Virus record (IMG/VR): IMGVR_UViG_3300029319_000012
Coordinates: 42,406-106,405 of that record
DNA: 64,000 bases
Source of the DNA: a virus
Reading direction: 5' to 3' (one strand)
Shown: piece by piece, positions 34,328 to 60,459 of the stretch
Layout of the letters: each line of letters begins with the position of its first letter
Numbering within the stretch: the first letter of the stretch is position 1
Program-made: the position numbers and the translations under genes
The notes under the pieces: generated by a model
Seen by the model: the letters and a program-made list of their open reading frames with translations, nothing else
What the model was told of the DNA's origin: nothing
The model's database searches: none

Positions 34328-35337
34328 TGGAGTTTTTTAATAAAAAGCAAGACGTAATAGAGCTAAAGCTAACTCAGTTTGGTCGGCATCTTTTGAGTGC
34401 CGGTCGGCTTAAGCCAACCTACTATGCTTTTTTTGATGATAATGTGATATATGATTTAAACAAAACAGATGCAAATGTCACTATAAGCGAGCAGCAAAAC
34501 ACTGCGCAAGAGCGCATAAAGGAAACACAACTAGTAAAATCTCAAGTAAGCTTCTCGTCGCTGCAAAAAGAATATGATGATGCTGGTGATCACTACTCAA
34601 GTGTAGAAAATGCTTATGATAATTTTCAAAAAAGTGCAGAGAAGAATTATTTGTTGCCGCGCCCGATTGGAACTAGCAAGATGAATTCTAACTTTTCACC
34701 AGCTTGGAATGTAAATTTTTTAAAAGGATTTATTTCCAGCTCGGCTCCTTCTTTGGTATTATCAAGTTCTCATGGTGGAAAAAATGAGCTGAATATCCCT
34801 CAATTGTTTTCTCATATGCAAGTTGACGTATTTTCTAATGATGCAGATTCTGCTAATGGCAGCTTGCCATCTGATGAGCAGTTGGAAGTTGTTTTTGATT
34901 TAGAAAATTCTGAAGAAATTGTTGATTCAGATAATTTGTTTTTTCTTTTAAAAATTGAAGAGCAAAATAGTGAGTTTCAAAAAAAGAATTTTGATATAGA
35001 AATGTTTGAAGTCGAAGAAGAATATACAAACGATGGCATTAAGTTGAATGAAACAATTAGACCGCTTGTTTTTGCGCCTACTACTATTGACAATCTACAA
35101 GCGTTAGAGGCAAAAAACATTTTAGCAGATGAGAATTATGCTGATTATTATTTTGACTTGCTCGTCGATGATGAAATTGATGATGCTGTAATATGTCAGT
35201 ATGATCCAATTCGTCAAAAAATGGGTGTGTTTGCTGATGAAAGAGCAAAGACATGTGAAGAGGTTGAAAAAGAAGAGTCAGAGAGAGTATTCGACATTTA
35301 TGATGACGAATCAGACTTCCCAGGGGAAATTTGCTAA
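34327..35337 (+). CDS. Structural protein with tail-collar-like N-terminus
   Basis: GTG overlaps the upstream TAG; IELKLTQFGRHLLSAG...YAFFDDNVIY aligns with the N-terminus of the 42853 protein. Confidence 0.6.
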   Translation: MEFFNKKQDVIELKLTQFGRHLLSAGRLKPTYYAFFDDNVIYDLNKTDANVTISEQQNTAQERIKETQLVKSQVSFSSLQKEYDDAGDHYSSVENAYDNFQKSAEKNYLLPRPIGTSKMNSNFSPAWNVNFLKGFISSSAPSLVLSSSHGGKNELNIPQLFSHMQVDVFSNDADSANGSLPSDEQLEVVFDLENSEEIVDSDNLFFLLKIEEQNSEFQKKNFDIEMFEVEEEYTNDGIKLNETIRPLVFAPTTIDNLQALEAKNILADENYADYYFDLLVDDEIDDAVICQYDPIRQKMGVFADERAKTCEEVEKEESERVFDIYDDESDFPGEIC

Positions 35338-38300
35338 TGGCTTACGATGTAAATGAAGGCACAAATTTCTTACCTCACGTATATTGTGAAAAAGTTATTT
35401 TAGAGACCGGTCGCCAAAAGGTTGAAAAAGCCGGCGACGAGGCAATAAAGAAAGAGAACCAGTCGATTGATACAACTTCTTCCAATGATAATATAACTGT
35501 CACTTTAAAGCTACAGCTTTTAGCTAATGTTAGCACGATAAATAATTGGCTATCAACAGATGCTAGCGCTTTTTTAAAGGATGTTAATTTGTTCGATGGA
35601 CTGTTTGTTCAGGTTGTTCCTGTTTTTGGCTCACAAATAAGGTCGCTTAAAGCAAGCTACTTACCTGCTAATCTTGGTGACAAAGAACCAACAAATATAT
35701 ACGTTGCAGGTCGGCAGTTAAATAATGAGGATTGGCTGCCATATGGTGCAGTCGGCGATTCAAAAGCATCTGCTGGAAATTGGTCAAACATAGTATTAAG
35801 CACGTTAGCAGTTGAGGGTAAAATTCCCACACCAATTAAAGTTTCAACGGCTACCATTTTTGGAGAAGGGCAAGCAGCTAGCTTAAACGACGCTTTGTTG
35901 CAAGGCAAGATAAGAGAAAAAAATATTGATGGTCAAGTTTATTATATTATACCAATGACGTATAGTTTTGTCTTTTCCTCTCAAGTAAAAAATCTTGGAT
36001 TTATGTTTTACTCTTTAATTCATACTCCTTATATTGTTGATAAATTCTCAACAGCCGGCGGTTCTCTTAGTGGTAACGCAGCTGGTGTTCGCTTCGGGTC
36101 TATCAATGCCGAAATTGTCCTTGAAAATGGCGTAGCTCCTGAAACCAGGGAAGCGTTTACAACGCCCACTGGGAAATATTGGGAGGGCTCTGTTCACCAT
36201 CATGCGACAGGTATTAATCCAGATCAAAATAACTATCAAGGTGACGGTAGTTTTGGACCTAATAAAGGCTGGATGGCAGGTCAAAGGCACATACCAGGCG
36301 CACAGCAGCCTAAATTACAACTCAATCAAGTTGCAAACTACAAGATTGACGATTTTAGAACAGGAAAAGGTCCTAAGATTATTGACAATGTTTTAGGAAT
36401 TCTTCCTGTTACAGAAAATTCATCTACGTTAGCAATCAAAAGAATAGATAGCCTAATAGGCGACTTTCAAAAAGAAACAAAGAAAGACCTTGAAAGAAAA
36501 AATGATGATGAATATTCAAAACTATATTTATCCAGAGACGCATCGGGCGCAGCCAGAGGCTTGTTTTTTATAAATATTTATAATTTTTTACGAAACAACT
36601 CAGAGCTGTTCAGTTCTCTGCAGGGACCACAAGGCATGATGACTTCAAGTCTAAATGAAATAATTGAAAATTGTAAAATTTTAGAATTAAAAGTATACAG
36701 AGATAGAGTTGAAGAAAAAAGTATATCTGGTAGAAAACAAAAAATATTTAAAAATGATACTTTCTATGAGCAGTCATCGTCATTAATTGGTGTCTTGTCT
36801 GACATTGAGACTTTTGGAGACCCAACTCAAACAAAACAATTGCATGAAATGTCTTTATCAAATGTTTTCGATGGTCATAGATATTTTGTCTTTGAGGACA
36901 AAGGCACAATTGGATTGACCGCTGGAGCCTATCAGTATAGAATCGAAATTAAGTTTAAAAACGGCACATATGAATTTATGAACACATATATTCAACGTTT
37001 AGAACTAATCCGCTCTAAATTACAGCAGTACTATCAACTTTCTCTAAGTGGAATACCTATTGATCAAGACAATAAAGTATTTAGAAATTCAATTATTTCG
37101 AATACGTATAAAGGACAAAGGTTTAAGCAGTATTTCGACGATCAATATGGCACGTTTGTGCCAGAATTTGCCGATACAATACTTGAAGAAGAATTTTCTG
37201 AAAGTAAGTTTCGCTTGGCAGGTGATAGTTTTTATATCTTCGACTCTGCTATTTTTGAACTTTCAAAAACAGGACAATTTTTTGATTTTATTAAGGACTA
37301 TAACGATATTGGAAATGTATTACTGTCTATGGTTAGTCCAATTTATGGCTCGCCACAAGGTATTAGCCATGTGATAAAAATTTATGATGCCCTAATAGGC
37401 AGACTGGAAGCTGTAACACGTATTAAAAAATATAAAAATGGCGGTTCTGATTTAACTTCAAAAACAAACACAGTTACGAACTACCAGGGCGGCTCTAGCT
37501 CTCCTATTTTTAATATAATCGATGATAGCCATGAGTTCGATGATCCATCCTCGCTTTACAAAGTTACACAAAATAACGAAGTTTTCGTTGATTATTTAGA
37601 AGTTCATCGTAGCCGCTTGCAAACAATAATTCAAGGCTTAAGGTCGGTTACTCCTGAATATTTTAAACAAAGGTGCCAGCTTGATGCGGCAAAGTTTTCT
37701 ACTTTTGCTAATAATTCGGAAGGATTTACTAATGTTGATATTGCTCGCTTGGTGCCCGATCAAGCTTTTTATTCTAACGCTGACAACTTCAAATTGGCTG
37801 TTAAGAATAATTTTGCTGGACCTACAATAAAAACGGTATCTGTCTCAAAAGATACGTTAGATAAAACAGCTTATAGCTTTTTATCGCCATCTATTGTTTT
37901 TTATAGAAATAGATCAAATAATAAATTAATGTTTTTTGATTCGTTCAGGTTAAACGCTAACGAGAAATTAAATACATTAGGCGGTAACTTGCTAGGTGCT
38001 AGTTTGCAAGGCGCAGATTATGATTTTTTGCTTTCTCATCTTGTTAACTTTTCATTAGAAAACAAAGAAAACAACGCAACACCCACAGATACGAACTTTC
38101 ATCCTTTTAGTGAATCTTTAGGCTCAATGTCCGCTTTGCTTGGAAAGTTAAATATTACAGCACATTCTGTATCAAATTTTAATGATTTTTATGACAAGGA
38201 GCCAGGTGCTGTCAATGGGGCTCTAGATGGAGTTTTAAACAGCTTTAAAGACATTTTTCCTTTAAAAGTACAAGATCATTCAGATGGACCGCTCAATATA

Positions 38301-39125
38301 GATTCGCTTAAGTTAAAATTGTCAGAATTTCTAACAAGAACAAACATACAGGGCATTAATCTTCCTGCGGCGAATGTGCTAGGTGGTATTAGTAATTACT
38401 ATACACAAAAATTACAAATACCCAACAACTTTAAACTTTATGATTATTACACTAACAGAAAAGCTTATGGCGTTCCAACAGATGATTTAAATCCAGTTTT
38501 TAGAAAAGCTTTTGAGGCAACAAAGCAAAATAATTCTATGTTATTTTTTAATTTTAACATGACTGCAAGAGTCGAAGTTTTTATACCAAATACTGCACTA
38601 AGTGCTAAAGATGATGAGGGCATGTGGCGCTTGCTAACTGAGGCAGATTTAAATTTAAATGACAGTAAAAAACTTTTTTGCAGGCTTAAATATTTTAATG
38701 AGTCTTTGCTTGGAAATATTGAAATACCAACATTAAATAAGCATTTTTTAATATACAACGGTGCGAATCAAAGTGTTCCAGCAGTAACAAACAAGATAGC
38801 TGCTAGTTCTGTGCCATCTTCAATAAAAAAAGCAGCTGCTGGCTTCTTGAGACAAAAAAATATAAAGGAACTGGGCACAAGAGTCGCTGAAGCTCCAGCT
38901 AATCCTGTGCGCACGCCATCTCGCACACCAAGACCTCTTGATCGCGCTCGCGGCAGCGTAACGCCAGCTAGATCACCACGGCGCGCCCCACAGACAGCAA
39001 CCGGTCGTGCAGCCACTCCACCTCCAAGTCGTTCCACTCCTGCACGATCTACACCATCGACAGCACCTCGTAGCACTACGCCAAGAACAGGCGGCACAGG
39101 TGGCGGTGGAGGAGGAGGATACTAA
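35337..39125 (+). CDS. Hypothetical virion protein (~1260 aa) with a His motif and a Pro/Arg/Thr-rich, Gly-Tyr-ending tail
   Basis: ATG in a TAATG overlap at 35337; YWEGSVHHH...WMAGQRH; ends GGTGGGGGGGY. Confidence 0.7.
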   Translation: MAYDVNEGTNFLPHVYCEKVILETGRQKVEKAGDEAIKKENQSIDTTSSNDNITVTLKLQLLANVSTINNWLSTDASAFLKDVNLFDGLFVQVVPVFGSQIRSLKASYLPANLGDKEPTNIYVAGRQLNNEDWLPYGAVGDSKASAGNWSNIVLSTLAVEGKIPTPIKVSTATIFGEGQAASLNDALLQGKIREKNIDGQVYYIIPMTYSFVFSSQVKNLGFMFYSLIHTPYIVDKFSTAGGSLSGNAAGVRFGSINAEIVLENGVAPETREAFTTPTGKYWEGSVHHHATGINPDQNNYQGDGSFGPNKGWMAGQRHIPGAQQPKLQLNQVANYKIDDFRTGKGPKIIDNVLGILPVTENSSTLAIKRIDSLIGDFQKETKKDLERKNDDEYSKLYLSRDASGAARGLFFINIYNFLRNNSELFSSLQGPQGMMTSSLNEIIENCKILELKVYRDRVEEKSISGRKQKIFKNDTFYEQSSSLIGVLSDIETFGDPTQTKQLHEMSLSNVFDGHRYFVFEDKGTIGLTAGAYQYRIEIKFKNGTYEFMNTYIQRLELIRSKLQQYYQLSLSGIPIDQDNKVFRNSIISNTYKGQRFKQYFDDQYGTFVPEFADTILEEEFSESKFRLAGDSFYIFDSAIFELSKTGQFFDFIKDYNDIGNVLLSMVSPIYGSPQGISHVIKIYDALIGRLEAVTRIKKYKNGGSDLTSKTNTVTNYQGGSSSPIFNIIDDSHEFDDPSSLYKVTQNNEVFVDYLEVHRSRLQTIIQGLRSVTPEYFKQRCQLDAAKFSTFANNSEGFTNVDIARLVPDQAFYSNADNFKLAVKNNFAGPTIKTVSVSKDTLDKTAYSFLSPSIVFYRNRSNNKLMFFDSFRLNANEKLNTLGGNLLGASLQGADYDFLLSHLVNFSLENKENNATPTDTNFHPFSESLGSMSALLGKLNITAHSVSNFNDFYDKEPGAVNGALDGVLNSFKDIFPLKVQDHSDGPLNIDSLKLKLSEFLTRTNIQGINLPAANVLGGISNYYTQKLQIPNNFKLYDYYTNRKAYGVPTDDLNPVFRKAFEATKQNNSMLFFNFNMTARVEVFIPNTALSAKDDEGMWRLLTEADLNLNDSKKLFCRLKYFNESLLGNIEIPTLNKHFLIYNGANQSVPAVTNKIAASSVPSSIKKAAAGFLRQKNIKELGTRVAEAPANPVRTPSRTPRPLDRARGSVTPARSPRRAPQTATGRAATPPPSRSTPARSTPSTAPRSTTPRTGGTGGGGGGGY

Positions 39126-42100
39126 TGTTTCATAATAGTTCTGGTGATAAATTTTCAAATAAGCCAACATCCGAAAAAATTGAAGCCGCATTTGGCGATC
39201 CTGTCGATCAGGATGAGTCAGGCGAAGATTCTGAGTTCAGCTCTGACCCGTTTGGCACTGGCAATGCAGCTGCGACAGAAGAGGGAGGCACAACCAACAA
39301 TCAGCAAATTTATAGTAATCAAGCTCCAGATGAAGAAGTAAAAAGTGCGCTAGACTTAATTGGTAGTAAGGAGTATTTTGATTCACTTCAAGATGGTGCT
39401 GGCACCAGCGCTGGTGTAAGAAATCAAGAGTTGGCTCCAGGGCTTTCTGGGCAAGAGGTTGAAAAAACAAGCTGGGCTAAGACTGCTATGGAGAAAAATG
39501 AGGATCTTTTTGTAGATCCAAAAACAGATGGTAGATATCTAAGTGATTTTCTAGCCGAGCTAGTTAAAAGAAAAAAACATGAATTTGCAGATAACTCTTT
39601 GATTAAACAACCGACTGTTGGCAAGACAAAGACAATTGTAGATAACAATTCATACGCTTTGGTGCCTAGGGATCCGTCGGACTTTAGAAAGTACGATCCA
39701 AATCTCAAGAAGTCTGTGCAGGGCAATGTTTCATTGTCTGCTTTTGCTGGGAAAGATTTATTGCGAATTGCTCTTGGTAGAAACTGGGATTTTTCATTTT
39801 TAAGTGCAGGTCACAGCGAGCAAGTTTTTGGTATGAATTGGCGTCCACCAAGCTTGTTTCAGGATGAACAAGTAGACCTTGAAAGCTGTGGACCTCCTAA
39901 AATGGTAAACATCGAAGGTGCTCTGCAAGATGATTTGGGCTCGTTAGCAACAGAGGAAAAAATAGTTGTTAGTTGCGATATGCCACCGAAAGGAAACGCA
40001 TTTGGCGGCTTGGCTGATGCAGAAGCTAAGTGGGTTAGATTCACTAAGTTTGGTGTTACCAATGATTTAGCATCATGCCCGCCAATAATTAACAGCACAC
40101 AAGTTTTTTATGATCATTACCACGAGGGTCAAAATCCTTTTAATCCTGAAGAACAACAAACAAAAGTCGTGCCAGCTAACGCTCAAGTTTATAATCATAC
40201 AAATTATTACAATGAAAGAATTGATAGTTCAGAATATGAATCGATATTATCTTCAAGAACTCAATTGCATAATTGTCTACCAAGCATTTACGGACTAGCA
40301 AGTTTTGTTACGAGGCTTGGTACCAATCCTGCATCAATTTTAACCTATCAACAATCAATAGAAAAGTTTTTAAGCTTTTATTATGTTCAGACACAATCAT
40401 ATTTACAAAGTGCTTTAAATGCATTAGGACCAACTAAACAAAGTCAAACAGCTTTTGATACAAATATTATTTATAAAAGACCTTTCGAAGTGCTGTTTAG
40501 TTTATATGGCTCAATGGGCACCCAGCAATATGATCCCCTACAAACTTCTGTTTTAAACTTAGGATATGATAATCCTTTAGCTGTTACAACAAATATTGTT
40601 CAGAGAATTATTGATTCAAAACGCAAGTCCGCAACTTCATACTATGGAGACGTTGACAGCTTTTTTGAAACATATTTCAATGAGTACGCTTACAGAATAA
40701 CACAAGACTCACAGCTAAATCAGCCTTTTGGTGACAATACTAAAATGGCGTTGTTAGAAAAATCTTTTACAAATATTATTTTTGATCCTGGCGTTGAGAC
40801 AAAGCTTGATTTTTTGATTGATTTATATAAAGATCGATTTCCTTTTTACACTGAAATAAGCTTTACAACAGCAAATTTTTCAGATTTAGGTCAAAAAATA
40901 CATGATTTAAATTTAAATAATTTATTCATATACCACCTAGCAGAATCAAATTCCCAATTTAGGGTTAATAGATTCAGAGAAAACACAACGCTTCTTGGGT
41001 TGCTGGATGTGCTATTTCCTCCAGTATATGTACCCCCAGCAAATATTGAAGCTATGACATCAGCGCTGTTGCCTGAATCTGATGAGCCTGAAACTTCCTC
41101 TATTTTTGCTGGATTACTTGCTGAAACAGTTGAGGATACAGAGGCGTCTGTAGAAAACCAAGTTGACACTGGTGTTGATATACCTGCTGAATCAACTTTG
41201 TATGATAAATCTTCTATCGCACCTTTTGTCGATTATAATTATGAAGCGCTTGTATCCATCAACAACGATGGAACAACAACCACAGAGACAACTCAAGTGC
41301 CTGTAGAAAATGAAAAGAGAATAACTGATATTTTTGAAATGCTTAACAACTATGTTGAGTCAGGTATTGAAAATTATTTTGTAGATTTTGATAGTGACAC
41401 ATTTGACATAAGAAATTTTGTCTCTCATATGCGTGCATCTTTTGACACGCCGGCACAAAAACAGGGAGAGTTTGGAGAGAATTTAAATGATTTTCTAGCC
41501 AAGACTGCAGGTGTAATACTTAGAAATGAACTCTTCTCAATATATCAAACAAATAAAAGATCTTGGCTTGACATTATGGAAGGCAAGCCAGCTTATACGG
41601 AAAATTTATTTTATAGAATTGAAAAGTCGTTAGTTACTGAAGCTAGCGATCGTCAAGTTATACAGAATATTTTTATTCCAAATCGTAATAAAACTCCCGA
41701 CGCGATTATCAAATTTGTCGATACGCAGGTTAAGTATCATACAGATATGAAATATAAGTATAGAGTTTTTGTTCATCGTGCTGTATTTGGCGCTAAATAT
41801 TATTATAGGTGGTTTACTGGCTCTGACGAAGGCGAGGCGTTTTTATCAAATCAAGGACCATATCCAAGAGTTGGTGCAGCAACCACCACTGATGAGCAGC
41901 TTGAGCAACTACAAGAAGACGGTACCAGGTTAGCAGGATTAAACTTTTACAACCCTACAACGCCCGATGGTACAAGCGCTGCTGATATGCCGGGTGAAGA
42001 AGATGGCATGCTAGACGCATCAAAGTTTAATCACTACGAGCAATTTTCTGCAGTATTCAAAGCAATTGTTGAGCCTTCAGTTAAAATTGTTGATGATCTT

Positions 42101-42802
42101 TTATTTGAAACACCAGAAATATTAATTATGGATAAGCCACCAGTGCCTCCTTTTGTTGACTTGGTGCCATACCGCGCTGTTAATAATAGAATCAAAATTT
42201 TGTTTGATGGGCTTGTTGATCGATTTAGGGCTGAGCCAATAGTCTTGTTGGAGTCTGATGAGGAGCAATTTGCTAATGCAGCGAAAAGCCAATTTGCTTA
42301 CGATGGCAAAATTGAGTTTGGCTCAGATGACCCTATATCTACATTCCAAATATTTAGGACAGAAAAACATCCTGAGGTTTATGCTGATTTTGAATTTTAC
42401 CAAGCTGTCAATGCTAAAGTGTTTGAAGAAACAATCCAGCCTAATAAAAAATATTTTTATATTTTCAGAGCAGTTGATCCGCACGGTCATGTATCGAACC
42501 CAACTGCAATTTATGAGGTTGAACTAATTGATGAAGCAGGTGCAGTTAAGCCAAAGATAAGAACTGTAGACTTTAAAAAGCCAGACTTAACAGATGATGT
42601 AAAAGATGTTAAAAAATACATAATGATAAGACCATCATTAAAACAATTATATAATTCACAAAACCCAGAAGTGGATAGCATCTTTTCATCTGGTCTTAAC
42701 AAAAAGAGAAAAAAATATAAGCTACGATTAACATCTAAAATGACTGGTAAGAAAATAGATGTTAATTTATCATTTGAGAAGAAAATTAAAAATGGTGCCT
42801 AA
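39125..42802 (+). CDS. 1225-aa hypothetical virion protein with C-terminal FN3/Ig-like domains
   Basis: FVDTQVKY...YKYRV and IQPNKKYFYIFRAVDPHGHVSNP resemble fibronectin type III strand motifs. Confidence 0.65.
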   Translation: MFHNSSGDKFSNKPTSEKIEAAFGDPVDQDESGEDSEFSSDPFGTGNAAATEEGGTTNNQQIYSNQAPDEEVKSALDLIGSKEYFDSLQDGAGTSAGVRNQELAPGLSGQEVEKTSWAKTAMEKNEDLFVDPKTDGRYLSDFLAELVKRKKHEFADNSLIKQPTVGKTKTIVDNNSYALVPRDPSDFRKYDPNLKKSVQGNVSLSAFAGKDLLRIALGRNWDFSFLSAGHSEQVFGMNWRPPSLFQDEQVDLESCGPPKMVNIEGALQDDLGSLATEEKIVVSCDMPPKGNAFGGLADAEAKWVRFTKFGVTNDLASCPPIINSTQVFYDHYHEGQNPFNPEEQQTKVVPANAQVYNHTNYYNERIDSSEYESILSSRTQLHNCLPSIYGLASFVTRLGTNPASILTYQQSIEKFLSFYYVQTQSYLQSALNALGPTKQSQTAFDTNIIYKRPFEVLFSLYGSMGTQQYDPLQTSVLNLGYDNPLAVTTNIVQRIIDSKRKSATSYYGDVDSFFETYFNEYAYRITQDSQLNQPFGDNTKMALLEKSFTNIIFDPGVETKLDFLIDLYKDRFPFYTEISFTTANFSDLGQKIHDLNLNNLFIYHLAESNSQFRVNRFRENTTLLGLLDVLFPPVYVPPANIEAMTSALLPESDEPETSSIFAGLLAETVEDTEASVENQVDTGVDIPAESTLYDKSSIAPFVDYNYEALVSINNDGTTTTETTQVPVENEKRITDIFEMLNNYVESGIENYFVDFDSDTFDIRNFVSHMRASFDTPAQKQGEFGENLNDFLAKTAGVILRNELFSIYQTNKRSWLDIMEGKPAYTENLFYRIEKSLVTEASDRQVIQNIFIPNRNKTPDAIIKFVDTQVKYHTDMKYKYRVFVHRAVFGAKYYYRWFTGSDEGEAFLSNQGPYPRVGAATTTDEQLEQLQEDGTRLAGLNFYNPTTPDGTSAADMPGEEDGMLDASKFNHYEQFSAVFKAIVEPSVKIVDDLLFETPEILIMDKPPVPPFVDLVPYRAVNNRIKILFDGLVDRFRAEPIVLLESDEEQFANAAKSQFAYDGKIEFGSDDPISTFQIFRTEKHPEVYADFEFYQAVNAKVFEETIQPNKKYFYIFRAVDPHGHVSNPTAIYEVELIDEAGAVKPKIRTVDFKKPDLTDDVKDVKKYIMIRPSLKQLYNSQNPEVDSIFSSGLNKKRKKYKLRLTSKMTGKKIDVNLSFEKKIKNGA

Positions 42803-47804: not shown

Positions 47805-50800
47805 ATGAAGTTTGCACATATAGCGGATACTCATATTCGCAATTTAAAGTTTCACAAGGAATATAGAGAGGTTTTTGCACAGCTTTATAAAAAGCTGCAA
47901 AAGCTTAAGCCAGATTACATTATACATTGTGGGGATATCGCACATACAAAAACTCAGATTAGTCCAGAGTTTGTTGAGATGTGCTCTGACTTTCTCAAAA
48001 ATTTAGCAGATATCGCACCCACTTATGTTATTCTGGGTAATCATGACGGCAATTTAAAAAATTCTAGTCGTCAAGACGCATTAACACCTATCGTTAATGC
48101 GTTAGAGCATGATTCATTATATTTACTTAAGGATTCAGGAGAGGTAATACTAAATGACCAATTTGCAATCAACGTTCTTTCAGTTTTTGACAGAGACAAT
48201 TGGCAGGACCCCACCGACAATAACCGAGTTAACATTGGTTTGTACCACGGTTCTATTAGTGGTATAAAAACTGATACTGGCTGGGTAATGGAGCACGGCG
48301 AAAATGATATCAGCATTTTTAATAATTTTGACTACGGCTTTCTTGGTGATATCCACAAGACAAACCAAAGTTTAAATGAAAGTGGCACAATAAGATACTG
48401 TGGTTCCACAGTTCAACAGAATCATGGTGAAAGCAATGATAAGGGTTTTCTTGTTTGGGATATTCAAGACAAAGACAACTATACTTGCGAGCATCATATT
48501 TTATTAAATCCTAAGCCTTTTATAAGTTTAGGTTTGACGCCCAAGGGTAGGTTGCCTCAGAAGCCTGAAGTACAAAAAGGTGCAAGATTAAGGCTAATTT
48601 CTGAGAATAATTTACCTTTAGATGCCATTCGTCGAGCAGTCGATGCAGCCAAAGTGCGCTTTAAGCCAGAGTCAGTGACCTACCTTAATAGAAATGCAGG
48701 TAATCATGGCAGTGTCGACAGTTTAGCTAATAAACTTTTTAAAGAAAATCTTCGTGATATTGCTGTGCAGGAAGAGTTGATCAAAGAATACTTGTCTGAC
48801 TATCAGCCTGATGACGATACGTTAGCTTCTATCTTCGAAATGAATAAGAAGTATAATATGATTGTCGAGAAAGAAGAAGAAACTAAGCGCAATGTTAATT
48901 GGCAGCTAAAATCTTTAGAGTGGGATAATCTTTTTAATTACGGTGAAGGCAACAAAGTTCAATTTTCATCACTTGATGGTATTGTTGGTATTCTTGGTAA
49001 GAACTTCTCTGGCAAGTCAAGCGTGATTGATAGCTTACTATACACCTTGTATAACACTACGTCAAAGAAAAATAGAAAAAACTATAATATCATTAACCAG
49101 AACGAAGAAAACGCTCGTGGCAAAGTTCAGATTGATATTGGCACAAAGACATACACAATTGAAAGAAAAAGTACAAAATATGTTAAGCGTCTCAAGGGCA
49201 AAGAAACCAATGAGGCTAAGACAGACGTAGAGTTTACTGTTTTTGACAACGCAACGGAAGTTGAGACTAGTTTAAATGGAATCACAAGACTAGAGACTGA
49301 CAAAAACATTCGCAAGGTGTTTGGCACACTAGATGACTTTCTTACAACGTCTATGGCTAGCCAGCTGGAGTCTTTATCGTTTATCAATGAGGGTTCTGTA
49401 AAAAGAAAAGAGACATTGGCAAAGTTCCTGGACCTTGAGTTTTTCGAGCAGAAGTTCAAACTAGCAAAAGAAGAGTCATCAGATCTCAAAGGCGCTATCA
49501 AAAAAATGCAAGATCGTGACTTTGATGCAGATATTAAAGAATCTGACACTGAGCTAGCTAGAGTTCAAACTGAGTTAATGAACAAGCAAAGACTGGAACA
49601 AGAAAAGCTAGAGCACATATCTGATCTTAAGTCTAATCTAGCAAACACACAAAAGCAAATTGACTCTGTACCGGAAGAAGTTGTTGATATCAAAAAGGTA
49701 TTAAAGAATTTAAAGAAAATAGAAAAGCAAGCCGCTGTTTTAAAAACTAATTTAGATAAGAAGCAGGAGGAGTTCGCGCATGATAACAAATTTTTACAAA
49801 AAATTGAAACATTCCTCGGGAGTTTTGATATTGAAAATGTTAATAGTGAAAAACAAACTGCAGCAAGATATCGAGAAGAGCTGCGAGAAATGGAACGAGA
49901 TTTTGAGCAATACGAAAAAAGAAGAGTAGTAATTGATGACAAGATAAGTTTTATGAAAGCTGCTCCATGTTCTTTAGCTTTGCAAGATAAATGTCAGTTT
50001 ATATCAGATGTCAGAAGGGCTGCTGATGATCTGAATAGGGTAAAGATTGGAATGAATCAGTTAACCTTAGTCAAGAACAAAAAACAACAGCAGCTAGACA
50101 ACATTAATGAAGTAAAGCTTGATGAGTATTCAAAAAAGTATACACAATTAATGGAGAAAAGAATTAGCGTGAAAGATGCTGTTTCAAAGCTTGAAGTTGA
50201 CATTGAAAAAGATAAGCTACAAGTTTTGAAAGCTCAAGGCATTCTTAAGGATCTTAAAGCAAAAGAGGCATTATACGAACAACATCGTGATGCTATTGAA
50301 AATGTTGAAGGTCTTGTTTTAGAAAAAGACAGATTATTGAAAAAAATTGATGTCGCCACAACAGACATGTCAGCCTTCAGAGGACAAATTGCGAAGCTGC
50401 ATCAGTCTGTTGGTCGAGAAGAAGAGCGAAACCAGCAGATTAAAAACCAAAAGCAAGATTTTGAAGATATGCAAAAAGAATTTACTGCTGCACATCTTTT
50501 TATGACTTGCATGCACGCCAATGGCATTTCATATGATATTATTAAAAAGCGCTTGCCTATTATTAATGATGAGATTGCAAAAACATTAAGCAACATTGTC
50601 GACTTCGAAGTTAACTTTGAAAACGATGATAAGAAACTAGACATTGCGATTAAACATCCAGCATATGATGCAAGACCCATTGAGATGGGCTCTGGTGCAG
50701 AGAAAACAATTGCAGCTATGGCTATTCGTTTAGCTCTTTTAAACGTTTCCACACTTCCAAAAGGTGATGTATTTATTCTTGATGAGCCAGGCACTGCCCT

Positions 50801-50960
50801 TGATGCAGATAATATGGAAGGCTTTATTAGAATTCTTGATATGATCAAGACACAATTTAAAACTGTCCTTCTTATATCGCACTTAGACTCATTAAAAGAT
50901 ATTGTCGATTCTCAAATTATGATTGAGAAACTAGAAGGTAAAGCATATGTCAATGAATAG
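47805..50960 (+). CDS. Fused SbcD/Mre11 nuclease and SbcC/Rad50 ATPase (T4 gp47-gp46-like) in one polypeptide
   Basis: ADTH, CGD, GNHD, YHG, GDIH phosphoesterase motifs, then GKNFSGKSS Walker A, long coiled coil, GSGAEK signature, FILDEP Walker B, ISH. Confidence 0.92.
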   Translation: MKFAHIADTHIRNLKFHKEYREVFAQLYKKLQKLKPDYIIHCGDIAHTKTQISPEFVEMCSDFLKNLADIAPTYVILGNHDGNLKNSSRQDALTPIVNALEHDSLYLLKDSGEVILNDQFAINVLSVFDRDNWQDPTDNNRVNIGLYHGSISGIKTDTGWVMEHGENDISIFNNFDYGFLGDIHKTNQSLNESGTIRYCGSTVQQNHGESNDKGFLVWDIQDKDNYTCEHHILLNPKPFISLGLTPKGRLPQKPEVQKGARLRLISENNLPLDAIRRAVDAAKVRFKPESVTYLNRNAGNHGSVDSLANKLFKENLRDIAVQEELIKEYLSDYQPDDDTLASIFEMNKKYNMIVEKEEETKRNVNWQLKSLEWDNLFNYGEGNKVQFSSLDGIVGILGKNFSGKSSVIDSLLYTLYNTTSKKNRKNYNIINQNEENARGKVQIDIGTKTYTIERKSTKYVKRLKGKETNEAKTDVEFTVFDNATEVETSLNGITRLETDKNIRKVFGTLDDFLTTSMASQLESLSFINEGSVKRKETLAKFLDLEFFEQKFKLAKEESSDLKGAIKKMQDRDFDADIKESDTELARVQTELMNKQRLEQEKLEHISDLKSNLANTQKQIDSVPEEVVDIKKVLKNLKKIEKQAAVLKTNLDKKQEEFAHDNKFLQKIETFLGSFDIENVNSEKQTAARYREELREMERDFEQYEKRRVVIDDKISFMKAAPCSLALQDKCQFISDVRRAADDLNRVKIGMNQLTLVKNKKQQQLDNINEVKLDEYSKKYTQLMEKRISVKDAVSKLEVDIEKDKLQVLKAQGILKDLKAKEALYEQHRDAIENVEGLVLEKDRLLKKIDVATTDMSAFRGQIAKLHQSVGREEERNQQIKNQKQDFEDMQKEFTAAHLFMTCMHANGISYDIIKKRLPIINDEIAKTLSNIVDFEVNFENDDKKLDIAIKHPAYDARPIEMGSGAEKTIAAMAIRLALLNVSTLPKGDVFILDEPGTALDADNMEGFIRILDMIKTQFKTVLLISHLDSLKDIVDSQIMIEKLEGKAYVNE

Positions 50961-50972: not shown

Positions 50973-51524
50973 GTGCAGAAACTATTTGAAAATTGGCGAC
51001 AGTATCTACAGGAAAGTAAAGGCAGCAAATATAAAGAATTGCTAAGCGCCATTCTCAAAGGAGACCAGGCTTTAAGAAAAGAATTTGCATTGTTAATAAA
51101 AAAAGAAGGCGGCTGGTCAAGAGAATTGGCAAATAGATTTGCAGAAAAGCACGGCAATCCAAAAGACGATATATTTGGTGACAAAACAAGACATAAAAAA
51201 ATACTGCCAGTTTTACCTAAATTAGATTATCAAAACTTTGACGATGAAGATTGGAGCAATCTTGATCCTTTTATAATACATTTAAGAGATAGAAAATATT
51301 TACCTGTTCGTAAAAAAGTATTATTAGCCATGGTTAAATATAAAAGATACTGGCGAGATTTAACAACTGATATGGCAAGAGAACTTGATATGCTTCCAGA
51401 GCTTGAAAATACTCAATTATCATATCCAACAGATACTCAAGATAATGGAAAAGTTGACAAGCTTTTAAAAAGCAAAGGTATGGGTTGGGAGCAATTAAAA
51501 AATCAAGTTTTACAAACTAAATAA
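50973..51524 (+). CDS. Hypothetical protein with KLFENWR leader; body weakly DUF6624-like
   Basis: MQKLFENWRQYLQE leader; DQALR, IIHLRD, LTTD and NTQ recall the DUF6624 DQxxR / QH / LxDR / GTQ order. Confidence 0.6.
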   Translation: MQKLFENWRQYLQESKGSKYKELLSAILKGDQALRKEFALLIKKEGGWSRELANRFAEKHGNPKDDIFGDKTRHKKILPVLPKLDYQNFDDEDWSNLDPFIIHLRDRKYLPVRKKVLLAMVKYKRYWRDLTTDMARELDMLPELENTQLSYPTDTQDNGKVDKLLKSKGMGWEQLKNQVLQTK

Positions 51525-51535: not shown

Positions 51536-52093
51536 ATGAAAAAACTATTTGAAAACTGGCGAAAGTATGTAAACGAACAATCTTCTGTTGTCCCAGGCAC
51601 TGGACCTGAGGGCACTAGTGGAATTGAGCAAGCAACTCAAAGTTTGATTCGAAAAAAAATACTAGAGCCAAAGCCTAAGTCAGCCGGGTCTAAACAGGCA
51701 GCTGCAAATGTTGAATTTGATCCTGAGTCTTTAGAAGTTGCAACCGACGATTTTGATGATGAGGATGCAGCTGCCGAAGATACGCCTAGCGCCGAGCCTG
51801 AAGCAGCTGCAGGAGGGAGAGAGGCAAGAGAGTTTGTAGTCTTTTCCATAGATACCGATCACCAAGACGAAATAGTGGATGATTCTTATAAAGATATAAT
51901 GGCATCGAGAGATCCCGAAGAAATAAGACTGGCAGCACAATTTGCTCGTATGGGTGAAAAAGCGGCAAAGGACATACTCAAAAAGCAGTATCGTGAATAT
52001 ATGCAAGCAGTTGCCAGCGGTCAGGTACCACTCACCCCTGATGAAATAAGATCCCTGACAAAAGGGACCATGATCGCATCTGAGCCAAATTAG
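51536..52093 (+). CDS. Acidic hypothetical protein with KLFENWR leader
   Basis: MKKLFENWRKYVNE leader nearly identical to the preceding gene; remainder unrelated. Confidence 0.7.
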   Translation: MKKLFENWRKYVNEQSSVVPGTGPEGTSGIEQATQSLIRKKILEPKPKSAGSKQAAANVEFDPESLEVATDDFDDEDAAAEDTPSAEPEAAAGGREAREFVVFSIDTDHQDEIVDDSYKDIMASRDPEEIRLAAQFARMGEKAAKDILKKQYREYMQAVASGQVPLTPDEIRSLTKGTMIASEPN

Positions 52094-52102
52094 AAATAAT
52101 AA

Positions 52103-52110
52103 ACTACTTA
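52103..52110 (+). promoter_or_regulatory. Candidate late promoter (ACTACTTA)
   Basis: Intergenic, before AGGAGG (52118-52123) and ATG 52132. Confidence 0.55.
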
Positions 52111-52131: not shown

Positions 52132-52326
52132 ATGGCACAGATGAGAGCATGGCTTGACAAACACGTTGAGCGTTTTATTTCAAGAAAGTTTTTGGCGTGG
52201 GGTACGGCTACATACCTTGTCTATATGAACGCCCTTACGAGCGAAGATTGGGTTGCAGTCACGCTTGCTTATATCGGATCACAAGCACTTGTTGATCTTG
52301 CCACGCAATGGAAACATGGAAGATGA
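52132..52326 (+). CDS. Small two-TM membrane protein, holin-like
   Basis: 64 aa; SRKF followed by two hydrophobic segments and a short basic C-terminus; strong RBS. Confidence 0.55.
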   Translation: MAQMRAWLDKHVERFISRKFLAWGTATYLVYMNALTSEDWVAVTLAYIGSQALVDLATQWKHGR

Positions 52327-52439
52327 AAAATATATTACAAAAAATCTTAAACTTATTTAAAAAGGCTTGCTGCTGTGTAGAGCAGCGCTGCAAAAGCTGT
52401 TGCGCTTGCTGTAAGTGCGTTAGTTGCGAGGGATGTTAA
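52323..52439 (+). CDS. 38-aa cysteine-rich, metallothionein-like peptide, absent from the ORF track
   Basis: MKNILQKILNLFKKACCCVEQRCKSCCACCKCVSCEGC*; 11 Cys; ATGA overlap upstream and TAATG overlap downstream. Confidence 0.75.
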   Translation: MKNILQKILNLFKKACCCVEQRCKSCCACCKCVSCEGC

Positions 52440-52756
52440 TGAAAATCACAAAACAACGATTAAGGCAGTTAATCAAAGAAGAGCTGGGAAATATTGACAA
52501 AGACGGCGATGCGGATGATGCAGCTGAGTTGCGTGATGAAGGTCAGGAAGTAGAAGAGCTTGTAGGTGATTTAGATTTTTATCATTCTGAGGTGTCTAAA
52601 GATAATAAAGGATTTTTTGCATCTCTAGTTGATATGACAGGCAATTTCTTAGATCGTCGCAAGGATGAGCTAGCTGATGAGTTAAAGCAAGCTTGTATTA
52701 GAGTCTTGCTAGATGCAAAATCAAATGCCTATAAATCAAATTTTCCGTCAAGGTAG
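52439..52756 (+). CDS. Hypothetical protein with MKITKQRLRQLIKEE leader
   Basis: ATG 52439 in a TAATG overlap (preferred to track start 52424); amphipathic leader ending I-K-E, then acidic body. Confidence 0.7.
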   Translation: MKITKQRLRQLIKEELGNIDKDGDADDAAELRDEGQEVEELVGDLDFYHSEVSKDNKGFFASLVDMTGNFLDRRKDELADELKQACIRVLLDAKSNAYKSNFPSR

Positions 52757-52767
52757 GAGTGCATAAT

Positions 52768-53163
52768 ATGCTTACTGTTGTTTTTTGGAAAAAACTTTGG
52801 TCTTGGATTAAACACTATTGGTATTTTCCTATTATAATAGGATTAATAATCTTTGCATATATCTCTGGATCATCTGCAAAAGAGAAACTTTTTAAAGTTC
52901 TAACAGATCAAAAAGAAAATCACAAAAAAGAAATTGAATTAATTAACAATACAAATGTTGAAAAAGAAGAAATTAAAAAAGAAATTATTGAAAAACATAA
53001 AGAAGAAATTGAACGTATTGAACAAGAGCACGGCGTTCAAATTCAAGACCTAGAAGAGGAAAAGCAAGAAGAGCTGCTGTCTACTATTGAAGAAAAGAAA
53101 GATAAGCCAGATGATTTAGCAAAAGATATTGCTGCTCTCCTCGGTGCAAAACACATAGAATAG
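52768..53163 (+). CDS. Membrane-anchored coiled-coil protein (i-spanin-like topology)
   Basis: AGGAG 52755-52759 favours ATG 52768; one N-terminal TM, then an E/K-rich coiled coil. Confidence 0.55.
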   Translation: MLTVVFWKKLWSWIKHYWYFPIIIGLIIFAYISGSSAKEKLFKVLTDQKENHKKEIELINNTNVEKEEIKKEIIEKHKEEIERIEQEHGVQIQDLEEEKQEELLSTIEEKKDKPDDLAKDIAALLGAKHIE

Positions 53164-53173
53164 AAGGTGTAAA

Positions 53174-53632
53174 ATGTTTAAGAAAATTATCGCTGTCATT
53201 GTGTGCGCAATGATGATTATAATTCCAACTAGCGTGTCAGCACAGGAATTGCAAGGTAAAGTTATGTCCCTGGAGTATGATGAAAAAGCTCCCTATGCAG
53301 GCATTCTGCTTGACCCTATCGCAGCATCTAAGATGATTGTTGATAGAAAATACATTTCAAAAGAGATTGAGTTGGAGCTAAGAAAAGAATTTCAAAAAGA
53401 TTTGTCTGATAGAACATTATCACTTAATTTAGTTGAAGCAGAACTACAAAGTCTTCGCGACTTGCATACTAAAACAATTGAGTTGAAGGACAATCAGATT
53501 GATCAGTTGCAAATGGCTCTAAAAGATGAAGTGTCTGATGACCATACGGAGTGGTGGGCACTTGGTGGCGTATTGATTGGCATAGCTCTTTCTGTTGCCG
53601 TGTTTTATGCGAGTGTTGAAGTTGCCAAATGA
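53174..53632 (+). CDS. Exported coiled-coil protein with signal peptide and C-terminal TM
   Basis: MFKKIIAVIVCAMMIIIPTSVSA|Q signal-peptide pattern; WWALGGVLIGIALSVAVFYA C-terminal TM. Confidence 0.6.
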   Translation: MFKKIIAVIVCAMMIIIPTSVSAQELQGKVMSLEYDEKAPYAGILLDPIAASKMIVDRKYISKEIELELRKEFQKDLSDRTLSLNLVEAELQSLRDLHTKTIELKDNQIDQLQMALKDEVSDDHTEWWALGGVLIGIALSVAVFYASVEVAK

Positions 53633-59838: not shown

Positions 59839-60459
59839 ATGTCGAAAGAATTACTTCAAGAATATTTTGAACTGTGCCCTGAAGGTCGCTGCCCTGTACA
59901 TGCGCTAAATGAATCAGAAAAGAAAAGCGTCATGGAAGGAGCGGTCTATCTTGTTGGTATATGCCAAAAAGCTGGTACAAAAAATGGTAATGGTAGAGTG
60001 TATAGAAAAGAGACACTGCAGCGCGAAGTTGAAAGATATCAAAACGCAGTTCGCGAACGTCGTTCTTTAGGCGAGCTTGATCATCCAGATGACTCTGTAA
60101 TTAATTTAAAGAATGCCTCCCACCTTGTAACAAAAATGTGGTGGCAAGGCGATAATGTCATGGGTAAAATTGAGGTGCTAGATACACCATCTGGTAAGAT
60201 TTTAAAAGAGCTGGTAAAGTCTGGAGTGAAATTAGGAATTTCTTCTAGAGGATTAGGCTCTGTTTCTAAAAAAGGTGACAAGCTAATGGTTGAGGATGAT
60301 TTTCAATTAATTTGCTTTGATATGGTTTCGGAGCCATCAACGCCAGGTGCCTACATGAATAAAGATTCTAATGTTGATGCATCAATAAATGTCTACTTAA
60401 AAGAAGAGAAAGAAAATAATAATTTAGACAACCTATTTAAATCGATTTTAAAGGATTAA
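59839..60459 (+). CDS. Prohead core protease (T4 gp21-like)
   Basis: NGNGRVY, GELDHP, GISSRGLGS, FDMVSEPSTPGA. Confidence 0.95.
   Translation: MSKELLQEYFELCPEGRCPVHALNESEKKSVMEGAVYLVGICQKAGTKNGNGRVYRKETLQREVERYQNAVRERRSLGELDHPDDSVINLKNASHLVTKMWWQGDNVMGKIEVLDTPSGKILKELVKSGVKLGISSRGLGSVSKKGDKLMVEDDFQLICFDMVSEPSTPGAYMNKDSNVDASINVYLKEEKENNNLDNLFKSILKD

What the first reader, a model, noticed from the sequence alone, without database searches (positions are those of the whole stretch)
52323..52439. Hidden 38-aa, 11-cysteine metallothionein-like phage peptide
Seen: MKNILQKILNLFKKA-CCCVEQRCKSCCACCKCVSCEGC. Eleven of the last 23 residues are Cys in CCC, CC, CxC and CxxC clusters, with no aromatic or His residues in that part. 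The ORF tiles exactly between its neighbours (ATGA and TAATG overlaps) and Cys codons alternate TGC/TGT, so it is not a simple DNA repeat. Known: such clusters define metallothioneins, and CKSCCACC resembles the vertebrate MT segment CKKSCCSCC more than cyanobacterial SmtA. The first 15 residues form a basic amphipathic helix. Inference: a membrane-associated Zn/Cu sink or redox buffer expressed late with the holin-like gene, possibly supplying metal for assembly or blunting metal/oxidative defence. I know of no described phage metallothionein of this form, but cannot search.
Basis: partly seen in the sequence, partly recalled or inferred. Interest (0 to 1): 0.85.

Follow-up and report, generated by a model that had tools for sequence, protein, structure and literature searches.

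The report
Cysteine-cluster micro-peptide of marine phages
A 38-codon gene that gene finders missed is real and belongs to an undescribed family of tiny peptides in large ocean phages, each a short helix joined to a knot of about twelve cysteine/histidine residues that most likely grips metal ions, although metal binding has not been measured.

Summary
The ORF at 52323-52439 (+) is as described: 38 aa, 11 Cys in the last 23 residues, with ATGA and TAATG overlaps to its neighbours. It is a real gene. DNA-pattern scans recovered 82 distinct relatives (31-49 aa). Nearly all come from uncultured marine phage contigs of a distant T4-like group. The N-terminal helix is conserved through saturated synonymous change. 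The window peptide belongs to a rarer His-free subtype found on nine contigs.

The most informative result is that Cys+His equals 12 in 73 of 82 members. The states are 10C+2H, 11C+1H and 12C+0H, so lost His is replaced by gained Cys. This points to a defined metal-ligand set rather than a loose thiol sponge.

No Pfam, NCBIfam, PHROG or PDB family matches, metallothioneins included. It is therefore metallothionein-like in likely mechanism, not in descent.

I found no support for membrane association, late expression, or a holin partner. The gene is a single-copy accessory gene in hypervariable regions, among arrays of genes with T4-style capsid-targeting-like leaders.

A RiPP precursor, a shared leader and a lipoprotein were tested and disfavoured.

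Earlier runs of this scan reported other nine-Cys phage micro-genes, but not this family.

The parts
52323..52439 (+). Micro-gene for the 38-aa peptide (stop included). It is a member of the His-free, 11-12-Cys subtype of the family.
52323..52367 (+). Codons 1-15: basic amphipathic helix with an h-h-p-p-h-h-p-h-h pattern. It is the counterpart of the family's conserved L-H-[KR]-L-x-N-L-F-N helix.
   Evidence: Hydrophobic moment 0.71. AF2 helix at residues 2-12. Conserved across the family with varied synonymous codons. The motif is never found without the Cys cluster.
52368..52436 (+). Codons 16-38: Cys cluster, C3-x4-C-x2-C2-x-C2-x-C-x2-C-x2-C. The closest relatives have Cys where the window has Arg22, giving them 12 Cys.
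52132..52326 (+). Upstream 64-aa gene with two weakly hydrophobic segments. Its stop overlaps the peptide's start, so the two are probably translationally coupled. It is conserved in at least 149 related phage contigs.
   Evidence: No holin family match.
52103..52110 (+). ACTACTTA, a copy of a promoter-like motif (ACTAYTTA) 29 nt upstream of the 64-aa gene. The same motif lies 28-61 nt upstream of the peptide gene in 25 of 69 relatives.
52439..52756 (+). Downstream 105-aa gene whose start overlaps the peptide's stop. Its N-terminus belongs to the M-K-I-T-K..L..I-I-K-E-E leader class that flanks the peptide gene in many relatives.

Best explanation
The ORF is a genuine single-copy accessory gene of a distant T4-like marine phage. 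It belongs to an undescribed, phage-restricted family of 31-49-aa peptides. Each member has a conserved 15-residue amphipathic helix fused to a Cys-packed tail.

The peptide most likely folds around a defined metal-thiolate cluster that uses about twelve ligands. Most members use 10 Cys + 2 His, the window's subtype uses 12 Cys, and the window itself has 11. That ligand count is comparable to the four-metal clusters of the metallothionein alpha domain (11 Cys) and of cyanobacterial SmtA (9 Cys + 2 His); both comparisons come from my own knowledge of the literature.

The helix either packs on the cluster, since its His6 looks like a ligand in most members, or docks the peptide on a partner. In mechanism it is metallothionein-like, binding soft metals such as Zn, Cu(I) or Cd, or possibly Fe-S. 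In descent it is unrelated to any described family.

Shown: the gene is real, the family exists, the ligand count is conserved, and there is no homology to known families. Inferred: metal binding, which metal, and the role during infection (metal buffering or hand-off versus a purely structural cluster).
For: Gene and family:
- A pattern scan of IMG/VR found 86 loci, 85 of them true members with strong GGAGG ribosome sites.
- An independent pattern based on the N-terminus, requiring only CCC, re-found the same loci plus variants.
- Seven metagenome contigs carry the window's subtype.

Selection:
- The helix residues were not part of the first search pattern, yet they are conserved (H 72/75, L 70/75, F 69/75) while synonymous sites are saturated (pS 0.81, pN/pS 0.38).
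- Cys codons are roughly evenly split between TGC and TGT at most positions.

Ligand count:
- Cys+His = 12 in 73 of 82 distinct peptides.
- The three states are 10C+2H (67 peptides), 11C+1H (1) and 12C+0H (5), so His loss goes with Cys gain.

One unit: the helix motif occurs 95 times in 2.46 Mb read in six frames. It is followed by a Cys-rich stretch in 94 cases; the 95th is cut off by the end of a locus after five Cys.

The tail has CC, CxC and CxxC spacing and no aromatic residues. Each of five large genomes checked carries one copy.
Against: - No metal measurement exists.
- No metallothionein or other family matches.
- A run of five consecutive Cys is unusual for known metallothioneins.
- The neighbourhood holds no consistent metal-transport or resistance genes.
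- The His-to-Cys compensation rests on only two lineages (one or two events).
- The main scan pattern fixed His16 and eight of the Cys, so part of the constancy is by construction. The N-terminus-based scan eases this only partly.
- The window peptide itself has 11 ligands, not 12.
- AlphaFold2 gives no confident fold.
Confidence: 0.6

Rival explanations
1. The metal cluster is only structural. The peptide is a small knuckle-like binding module that docks on a host or phage target (protein or DNA), acting as a host-takeover or counter-defence factor like other small genes of hypervariable phage regions.
For: - The helix is more conserved than a simple metal sink would need.
- The gene sits in hypervariable arrays of leader-bearing polymorphic genes, the kind of region where T4 keeps diverse anti-restriction internal proteins (PMC3012670).
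- Several members end in a basic tail with an R-G-R-P AT-hook-like core. The Pfam AT_hook match is only E = 0.27.
Against: No target is known. The tail varies freely in non-Cys positions and its C-terminal Cys spacing varies, so a specific binding surface is not evident. Basic tails occur in a minority of members only.
Confidence: 0.2
2. It is a virion-packaged internal peptide. The N-terminal helix acts as a capsid-targeting signal, and the peptide travels with the DNA into the next host.
For: - The phage has a T4-type prohead protease (Peptidase_S77) and a Gp23 capsid protein.
- Flanking genes carry conserved leaders ending in I/L/V-x-E, like T4 capsid-targeting sequences.
- Some members have DNA-binding-like basic tails.
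Against: - The peptide's helix has no x-E cleavage site.
- It scores no better against profiles of the two leader classes than the top 10% of background ORFs.
- The helix motif is never found on any other kind of protein.
Confidence: 0.08
3. It is an iron-sulfur cluster carrier or scaffold accessory rather than a Zn/Cu thiolate peptide.
For: IscU (NifU_N) and IscA (Fe-S_biosyn) genes lie within about 2 kb of the peptide gene in some six loci. In L209, IscU is immediately upstream.
Against: The link holds in only a small minority of the roughly 100 loci, probably one subclade. Both are accessory genes that land in the same variable region. The Cys spacing (five in a row) is unlike known Fe-S motifs. 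The window genome shows no such neighbour.
Confidence: 0.07
4. It is a RiPP precursor: a leader helix recognised by a maturase, and a Cys-rich core that is converted to thioethers or thiazoles.
For: The leader-plus-Cys-core layout resembles precursors such as SCIFF-type peptides (from my own knowledge).
Against: - No enzyme gene is a consistent neighbour in 83 loci.
- Radical SAM genes are absent from two of four (near-)complete genomes that carry the peptide. Where present in the window's closest relative, they lie about 60 kb away.
- YcaO is absent from all five genomes checked.
- No NCBIfam RiPP model matches.
Confidence: 0.04
5. The product is irrelevant. The ORF is a regulatory upstream frame whose Cys codons gate translation of the coupled downstream gene according to cysteine supply.
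For: The window gene overlaps both of its neighbours, and about half of the relatives overlap or abut the downstream gene.
Against: The amino-acid sequence of the helix is conserved through synonymous change. The downstream gene differs from locus to locus. Many copies have their own strong ribosome site and a promoter-like motif.
Confidence: 0.03

Closest known systems
Vertebrate metallothionein alpha domain (four divalent metals on 11 Cys; Pfam PF00131)
   Same: Small and about half Cys, with CC-x-CC, CxC and CxxC spacing and no aromatics in the Cys part. The window peptide has exactly 11 Cys. The stoichiometry of the alpha domain is from my own knowledge.
   Different: No detectable sequence relation. 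The phage peptide has a conserved N-terminal helix, a run of three to five consecutive Cys and a single domain, and it is encoded by a phage.
Cyanobacterial SmtA/BmtA (Zn4 on 9 Cys + 2 His; Pfam PF02069)
   Same: It is a bacterial-world metallothionein that mixes His with Cys as ligands. Most family members have 10 Cys + 2 conserved His. The SmtA cluster composition is from my own knowledge.
   Different: No Pfam hit for any of 44 members at E<=10. The Cys spacing differs. The window subtype has no His at all.
Nine-Cys, 20-23-aa micro-genes of marine phages noted earlier in this scan (e1-5788367, e1-5813887 and others)
   Same: They are unannotated, Cys-packed micro-genes on uncultured marine phage contigs and were judged metallothionein-like. 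Metal binding is untested.
   Different: This family is longer, carries the conserved helix and two His, and has 12 ligands. No 15-30-aa Cys-rich micro-gene of another kind lies in the loci fetched here.
T4 internal proteins with a capsid-targeting sequence (PMC3012670)
   Same: The genomic setting matches: a T4-like phage with an S77 prohead protease, and hypervariable arrays of genes that share only a short N-terminal leader.
   Different: This applies to the neighbours, not to the peptide. Its helix is a separate motif without the x-E site.

Membership tests
Metallothioneins (functional class) | Small size, very high Cys content in CC/CxC/CxxC motifs, and few or no aromatic residues | tested here: met
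   38 aa and 29% Cys overall; 11 of the last 23 residues are Cys, and that part has no aromatic or His residue. The helix part does contain one Phe.
Metallothioneins (functional class) | Forms metal-thiolate clusters with defined stoichiometry | not testable with these tools
   The only evidence is indirect: Cys+His = 12 in 73 of 82 members, with His loss going with Cys gain.
Curated metallothionein sequence families (Pfam Metallothio, Metallothio_2, Metallothio_Pro and others) | Significant match to the family profile | tested here: not met
   No MT family matched the window peptide at E<=0.1 or any of the 44 aligned family members, the window peptide included, at E<=10. No solved MT chain matched the family profile or the single peptide. 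The search of 1.84 billion representatives returned family members only, plus one repetitive 393-aa protein just under the cut-off (E 5.3e-4); none looks like an MT.
RiPP precursor peptides | Genetic linkage to a maturase (radical SAM, YcaO, lanthipeptide synthetase) | tested here: not met
   There is no consistent enzyme neighbour. Radical SAM is missing in 2 of 4 complete genomes, and YcaO in 5 of 5.
T4-type capsid-targeted internal proteins | N-terminal targeting leader shared with other packaged proteins, ending in an I/L-x-E protease site | tested here: not met
   The first 15 residues hold no Glu. Profile scores against both leader classes are unremarkable. The helix motif is exclusive to this family.
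Bacterial lipoproteins / o-spanins | Signal peptide with a lipobox (L-[AS]-[GA]-C) | tested here: not met
   The residues before the first Cys are F-K-K-A. The N-terminus has no uninterrupted hydrophobic core.
Nine-Cys phage micro-gene family of earlier scan notes | 20-23 aa with nine conserved Cys | tested here: inconclusive
   Length and Cys number differ. No shared words were found in the findings index. Sequences of that family were not available for alignment.

The most novel reading that the evidence does not exclude
Large ocean phages carry a dedicated, previously unseen class of metallopeptide: a helix joined to a twelve-ligand Cys/His cluster. With it they capture or redistribute scarce trace metals (Zn, Cu, or Fe as Fe-S) inside the infected cell. 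This would be an auxiliary metal-handling gene that standard gene calling has missed across marine viromes.
Probability: 0.3. Interest if true: 0.8.

Novelty: new variant of a known kind. Interest (0 to 1): 0.65.

Why it matters
If the peptide binds metal as inferred, phages of the trace-metal-poor open ocean encode their own miniature metal-cluster proteins. That is a kind of auxiliary function absent from current virome annotations, because the genes are too short and too odd for gene callers. The family offers a very small (31-38 aa), naturally varied scaffold with a fixed ligand count and natural His/Cys swaps. This makes it directly testable by peptide synthesis and mass spectrometry. It also shows that hypervariable regions of T4-like marine phages hold conserved micro-genes alongside the leader-tagged polymorphic genes.

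Tried and rejected
- Word-based protein search with the 43-aa extended ORF found nothing. The 38-aa form was too short for the tool.
- The search for related loci with the three-peptide alignment re-found only L003's contig.
- A looser Cys pattern returned mostly TGC/GCA simple repeats. Only four loci were true.
- ESM Atlas gave no usable hit for two members.
- tblastn of a 50-aa member against cultured and deposited phages found nothing. The nearest cultured relative by terminase, Flavobacterium phage immuto, lacks the gene.
- AlphaFold2 on the family alignment reached pLDDT 57, so no fold search was attempted.
- The T4 late-promoter consensus TATAAATA is not placed informatively.
- The sigma-70 and terminator scan and Rfam showed nothing at the locus.
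- The idea that the helix is a variant of the neighbours' leaders was rejected.
- The GTDB genome scan gave eight hits. Six are GC-rich or out-of-context chance frames. Two are phage-like contigs binned into MAGs.
It was redone from the stored loci.

Full report
**Observation.**
- It encodes 38 aa. The first 15 residues are basic and amphipathic. The last 23 hold 11 Cys, encoded by 7 TGC and 4 TGT.
- The start overlaps the stop of a 64-aa gene (ATGA). The stop overlaps the start of a 105-aa gene (TAATG).
- There is no tandem repeat.
- No other six-frame stretch of the window comes near this Cys density.
- The helical hydrophobic moment of residues 2-15 is 0.71, matched by 0.4% of shuffles. AlphaFold2 predicts only a helix at residues 2-12, at low confidence.

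**What genome this is.** The window is the last 64 kb of a 106-kb IMG/VR virus record estimated 59% complete, with 37% G+C.
- Its terminase is gp17-like, 45% identical to that of Flavobacterium phage immuto.
- The portal, a Peptidase_S77 prohead protease and a Gp23-family capsid protein follow downstream.
- It is therefore a distant T4-like phage. No deposited phage matches at the DNA level.
- The upstream 64-aa gene has relatives in at least 149 marine viral contigs.
- In most of them it is followed directly by a 134-aa protein (a membrane segment plus coiled coil) and a 152-aa protein with a signal-like N-terminus.
- In a minority, a variable insert sits between the first two of these genes.

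**The ORF is a gene with a family.**
- Two close relatives (L002, L003) carry a Cys-rich micro-ORF in that insert.
- A degenerate DNA pattern for H-C5-G-C2-x-C found 86 IMG/VR loci. Of these, 85 encode peptides of one family, nearly all with a GGAGG-type ribosome site 6-9 nt upstream.
- A second pattern, built on the N-terminus and requiring only three Cys, re-found the same loci plus variants.
- A metagenome scan for the window's own Cys spacing found seven more contigs. Five are in the same position after the 64-aa gene. One (L303) begins at the peptide gene, so its upstream side is not seen. One (L306) lies between two leader-type genes.
- In all there are 82 distinct peptides of 31-49 aa, median 33.
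- The consensus of the main type is M-K-x-[FLV]-L-H-[KR]-L-x-N-L-F-N-x-x-H, followed by C5-G-C2-x-C and a variable end (either G-C-C or C-x-G-x-C).
- The helix residues were not part of the first pattern, yet they are conserved while synonymous sites are saturated (pS 0.81, pN/pS 0.38). Every Cys position uses both codons.
- Window versus L003: 11 synonymous and 9 non-synonymous codon differences, with every Cys of the window peptide kept.
- In 2.46 Mb of fetched DNA read in six frames, the helix motif occurs 95 times. It is followed by a Cys-rich stretch in 94 cases; the 95th is cut off by the end of a locus after five Cys.

**The key regularity.** Cys+His is 12 in 73 of 82 members.
- 67 members have 10 Cys + 2 His.
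- One (L238) has lost His6 and has 11 Cys.
- The window's subtype has lost both His and has 12 Cys.
- The window itself has Arg where its relatives have Cys22, giving 11.
- His loss paired with Cys gain is what one expects if both are metal ligands and the number of ligands is selected.
- Caveats: the compensation rests on two lineages, and the main pattern fixed His16 and eight Cys.
- From my own knowledge, 11-12 ligands fit four-metal clusters such as the metallothionein alpha domain (11 Cys) and SmtA (9 Cys + 2 His).

**What it is not.**
- No Pfam, NCBIfam or PHROG family matches the window peptide. In the Pfam and NCBIfam scans of all 44 aligned members at E<=10, metallothionein models do not appear.
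- No solved structure matches. The sole weak hit, to a designed pentameric coiled coil at E = 2.5, is only a hint that the helix could self-associate.
- An exhaustive profile search of 1.84 billion representative proteins returned eight true members, all unnamed, and no cellular family.
- The GTDB species genomes hold two true copies. Both are on contigs over 100 kb binned into MAGs. One (L299) is phage-like by gene content. The other (L297) has the same length as an IMG/VR viral contig (L292).
- It is not a RiPP precursor by the linkage test.
- It is not a lipoprotein (no lipobox).
- It does not share its leader with its neighbours.

**Context.**
- The gene is single-copy and present in only some relatives. 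By my own comparison of the contig lists, about 6 of the 22 related contigs longer than 100 kb carry it.
- Its positions vary: after the 64-aa gene, after the primase, and elsewhere.
- Its commonest neighbours are polymorphic genes that share only a short N-terminal leader, of three kinds: M-K-I-T-K..L..I-I-K-E-E, M-K..L-L-E-N-W-R..Y-L-N-E, and K-K-R-I-D-P-R-Y-F-L-N-E.
- With an S77 protease present, these recall T4 internal proteins and their capsid-targeting sequence (PMC3012670). That is an analogy for the neighbours, not a result for the peptide.
- A promoter-like ACTAYTTA motif precedes the peptide gene in 25 of 69 relatives, against 2.4% of random windows. In the window it precedes the 64-aa gene. 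Its timing class is unknown.
- 'Late with the holin' is therefore not established. The 64-aa protein has no holin match and there is no endolysin nearby.

**Verdict.**
- The metallothionein-like reading is the best available for mechanism, at about 0.6, but membership in any metallothionein family is not supported.
- The physiological role is open: a metal buffer or donor, a structural cluster in a small binding module, an Fe-S role suggested by IscU/IscA neighbours in about six loci, or a packaged peptide.
- Earlier runs of this scan reported other nine-Cys micro-genes in marine phages but not this family.
- The papers searched describe no phage metallothionein.

Noticed in passing
window 50973-51524, 51536-52093, 52439-52756; many loci (e.g. 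L237, L256, L280): There are arrays of polymorphic genes that share only a 14-16-residue N-terminal leader ending in I/L/V-x-E, with unrelated bodies. Three leader classes occur. 70 ORFs of the I-I-K-E-E class were counted in the fetched loci. With the S77 prohead protease at 59839-60459, they look like T4-style capsid-targeted, protease-trimmed internal proteins.
   Followed up: partly
window 19997, 42826, 50961, 51524, 52103, 61669 (+ strand): An ACTAYTTA motif lies in the short gaps just upstream of gene starts; six of the nine + strand copies in the window lie just upstream of ORF starts. It also lies 28-61 nt upstream of the peptide gene in 25 of 69 relatives, against 2.4% of random windows. 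It is a candidate phage promoter of unknown timing class.
   Followed up: partly
L245:12876-13022, L249:12470-12616, L255:7050-7193, P0001, P0002, L299 copy: Some family members carry a basic C-terminal extension with an R-G-R-P core, like an AT-hook (Pfam AT_hook only E = 0.27). This hints at DNA or polyanion contact in a subset.
   Followed up: partly
L299:6001-6688, L247, L229, L209, L214: IscU (NifU_N, E 1.7e-52) and IscA (Fe-S_biosyn) auxiliary genes lie within about 2 kb of the peptide gene in a subclade of these phages.
   Followed up: partly
window 52132-53632: A trio of genes (64 aa; 134 aa with a membrane segment and coiled coil; 152 aa with a signal-like N-terminus and a C-terminal hydrophobic segment) is conserved upstream of the terminase in most relatives. 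The only hit is a weak Rz-like spanin match (E 0.007). There is no endolysin beside it, and its function is unknown.
   Followed up: partly
window 47805-50960: A single 1051-aa ORF fuses an Mre11/SbcD-type phosphoesterase to an SbcC/Rad50-type ATPase.
   Followed up: no
window 8628-20084, 23812-28932, 28970-34327, 35331-42802: There are very long ORFs (3818, 1706, 1785, 1264 and 1225 aa) on the + strand. They were not examined.
   Followed up: no
L299 (NHHP01000006.1) and L297 (PBIO01000025.1): Two contigs of 116 kb and 101 kb that carry the peptide gene are filed inside MAGs named Candidatus Pelagibacter sp. TMED166 and Halobacteriovorax sp. SP2999. L299 is phage-like by gene content. L297 has the same length as an IMG/VR viral contig. 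The binning may be a host hint or a mis-binning.
   Followed up: partly
L227, about 200 nt upstream of its family member: A second, degenerate copy of the peptide gene keeps the H-C5-G-C2 core but then runs into unrelated residues.
   Followed up: no
G000:C1:16392-16475 (outside the window): A stop-to-stop frame holds C3-G-C2-x-C2-x-C (8 Cys) with no ATG. It is probably an out-of-frame chance stretch and was not checked.
   Followed up: no
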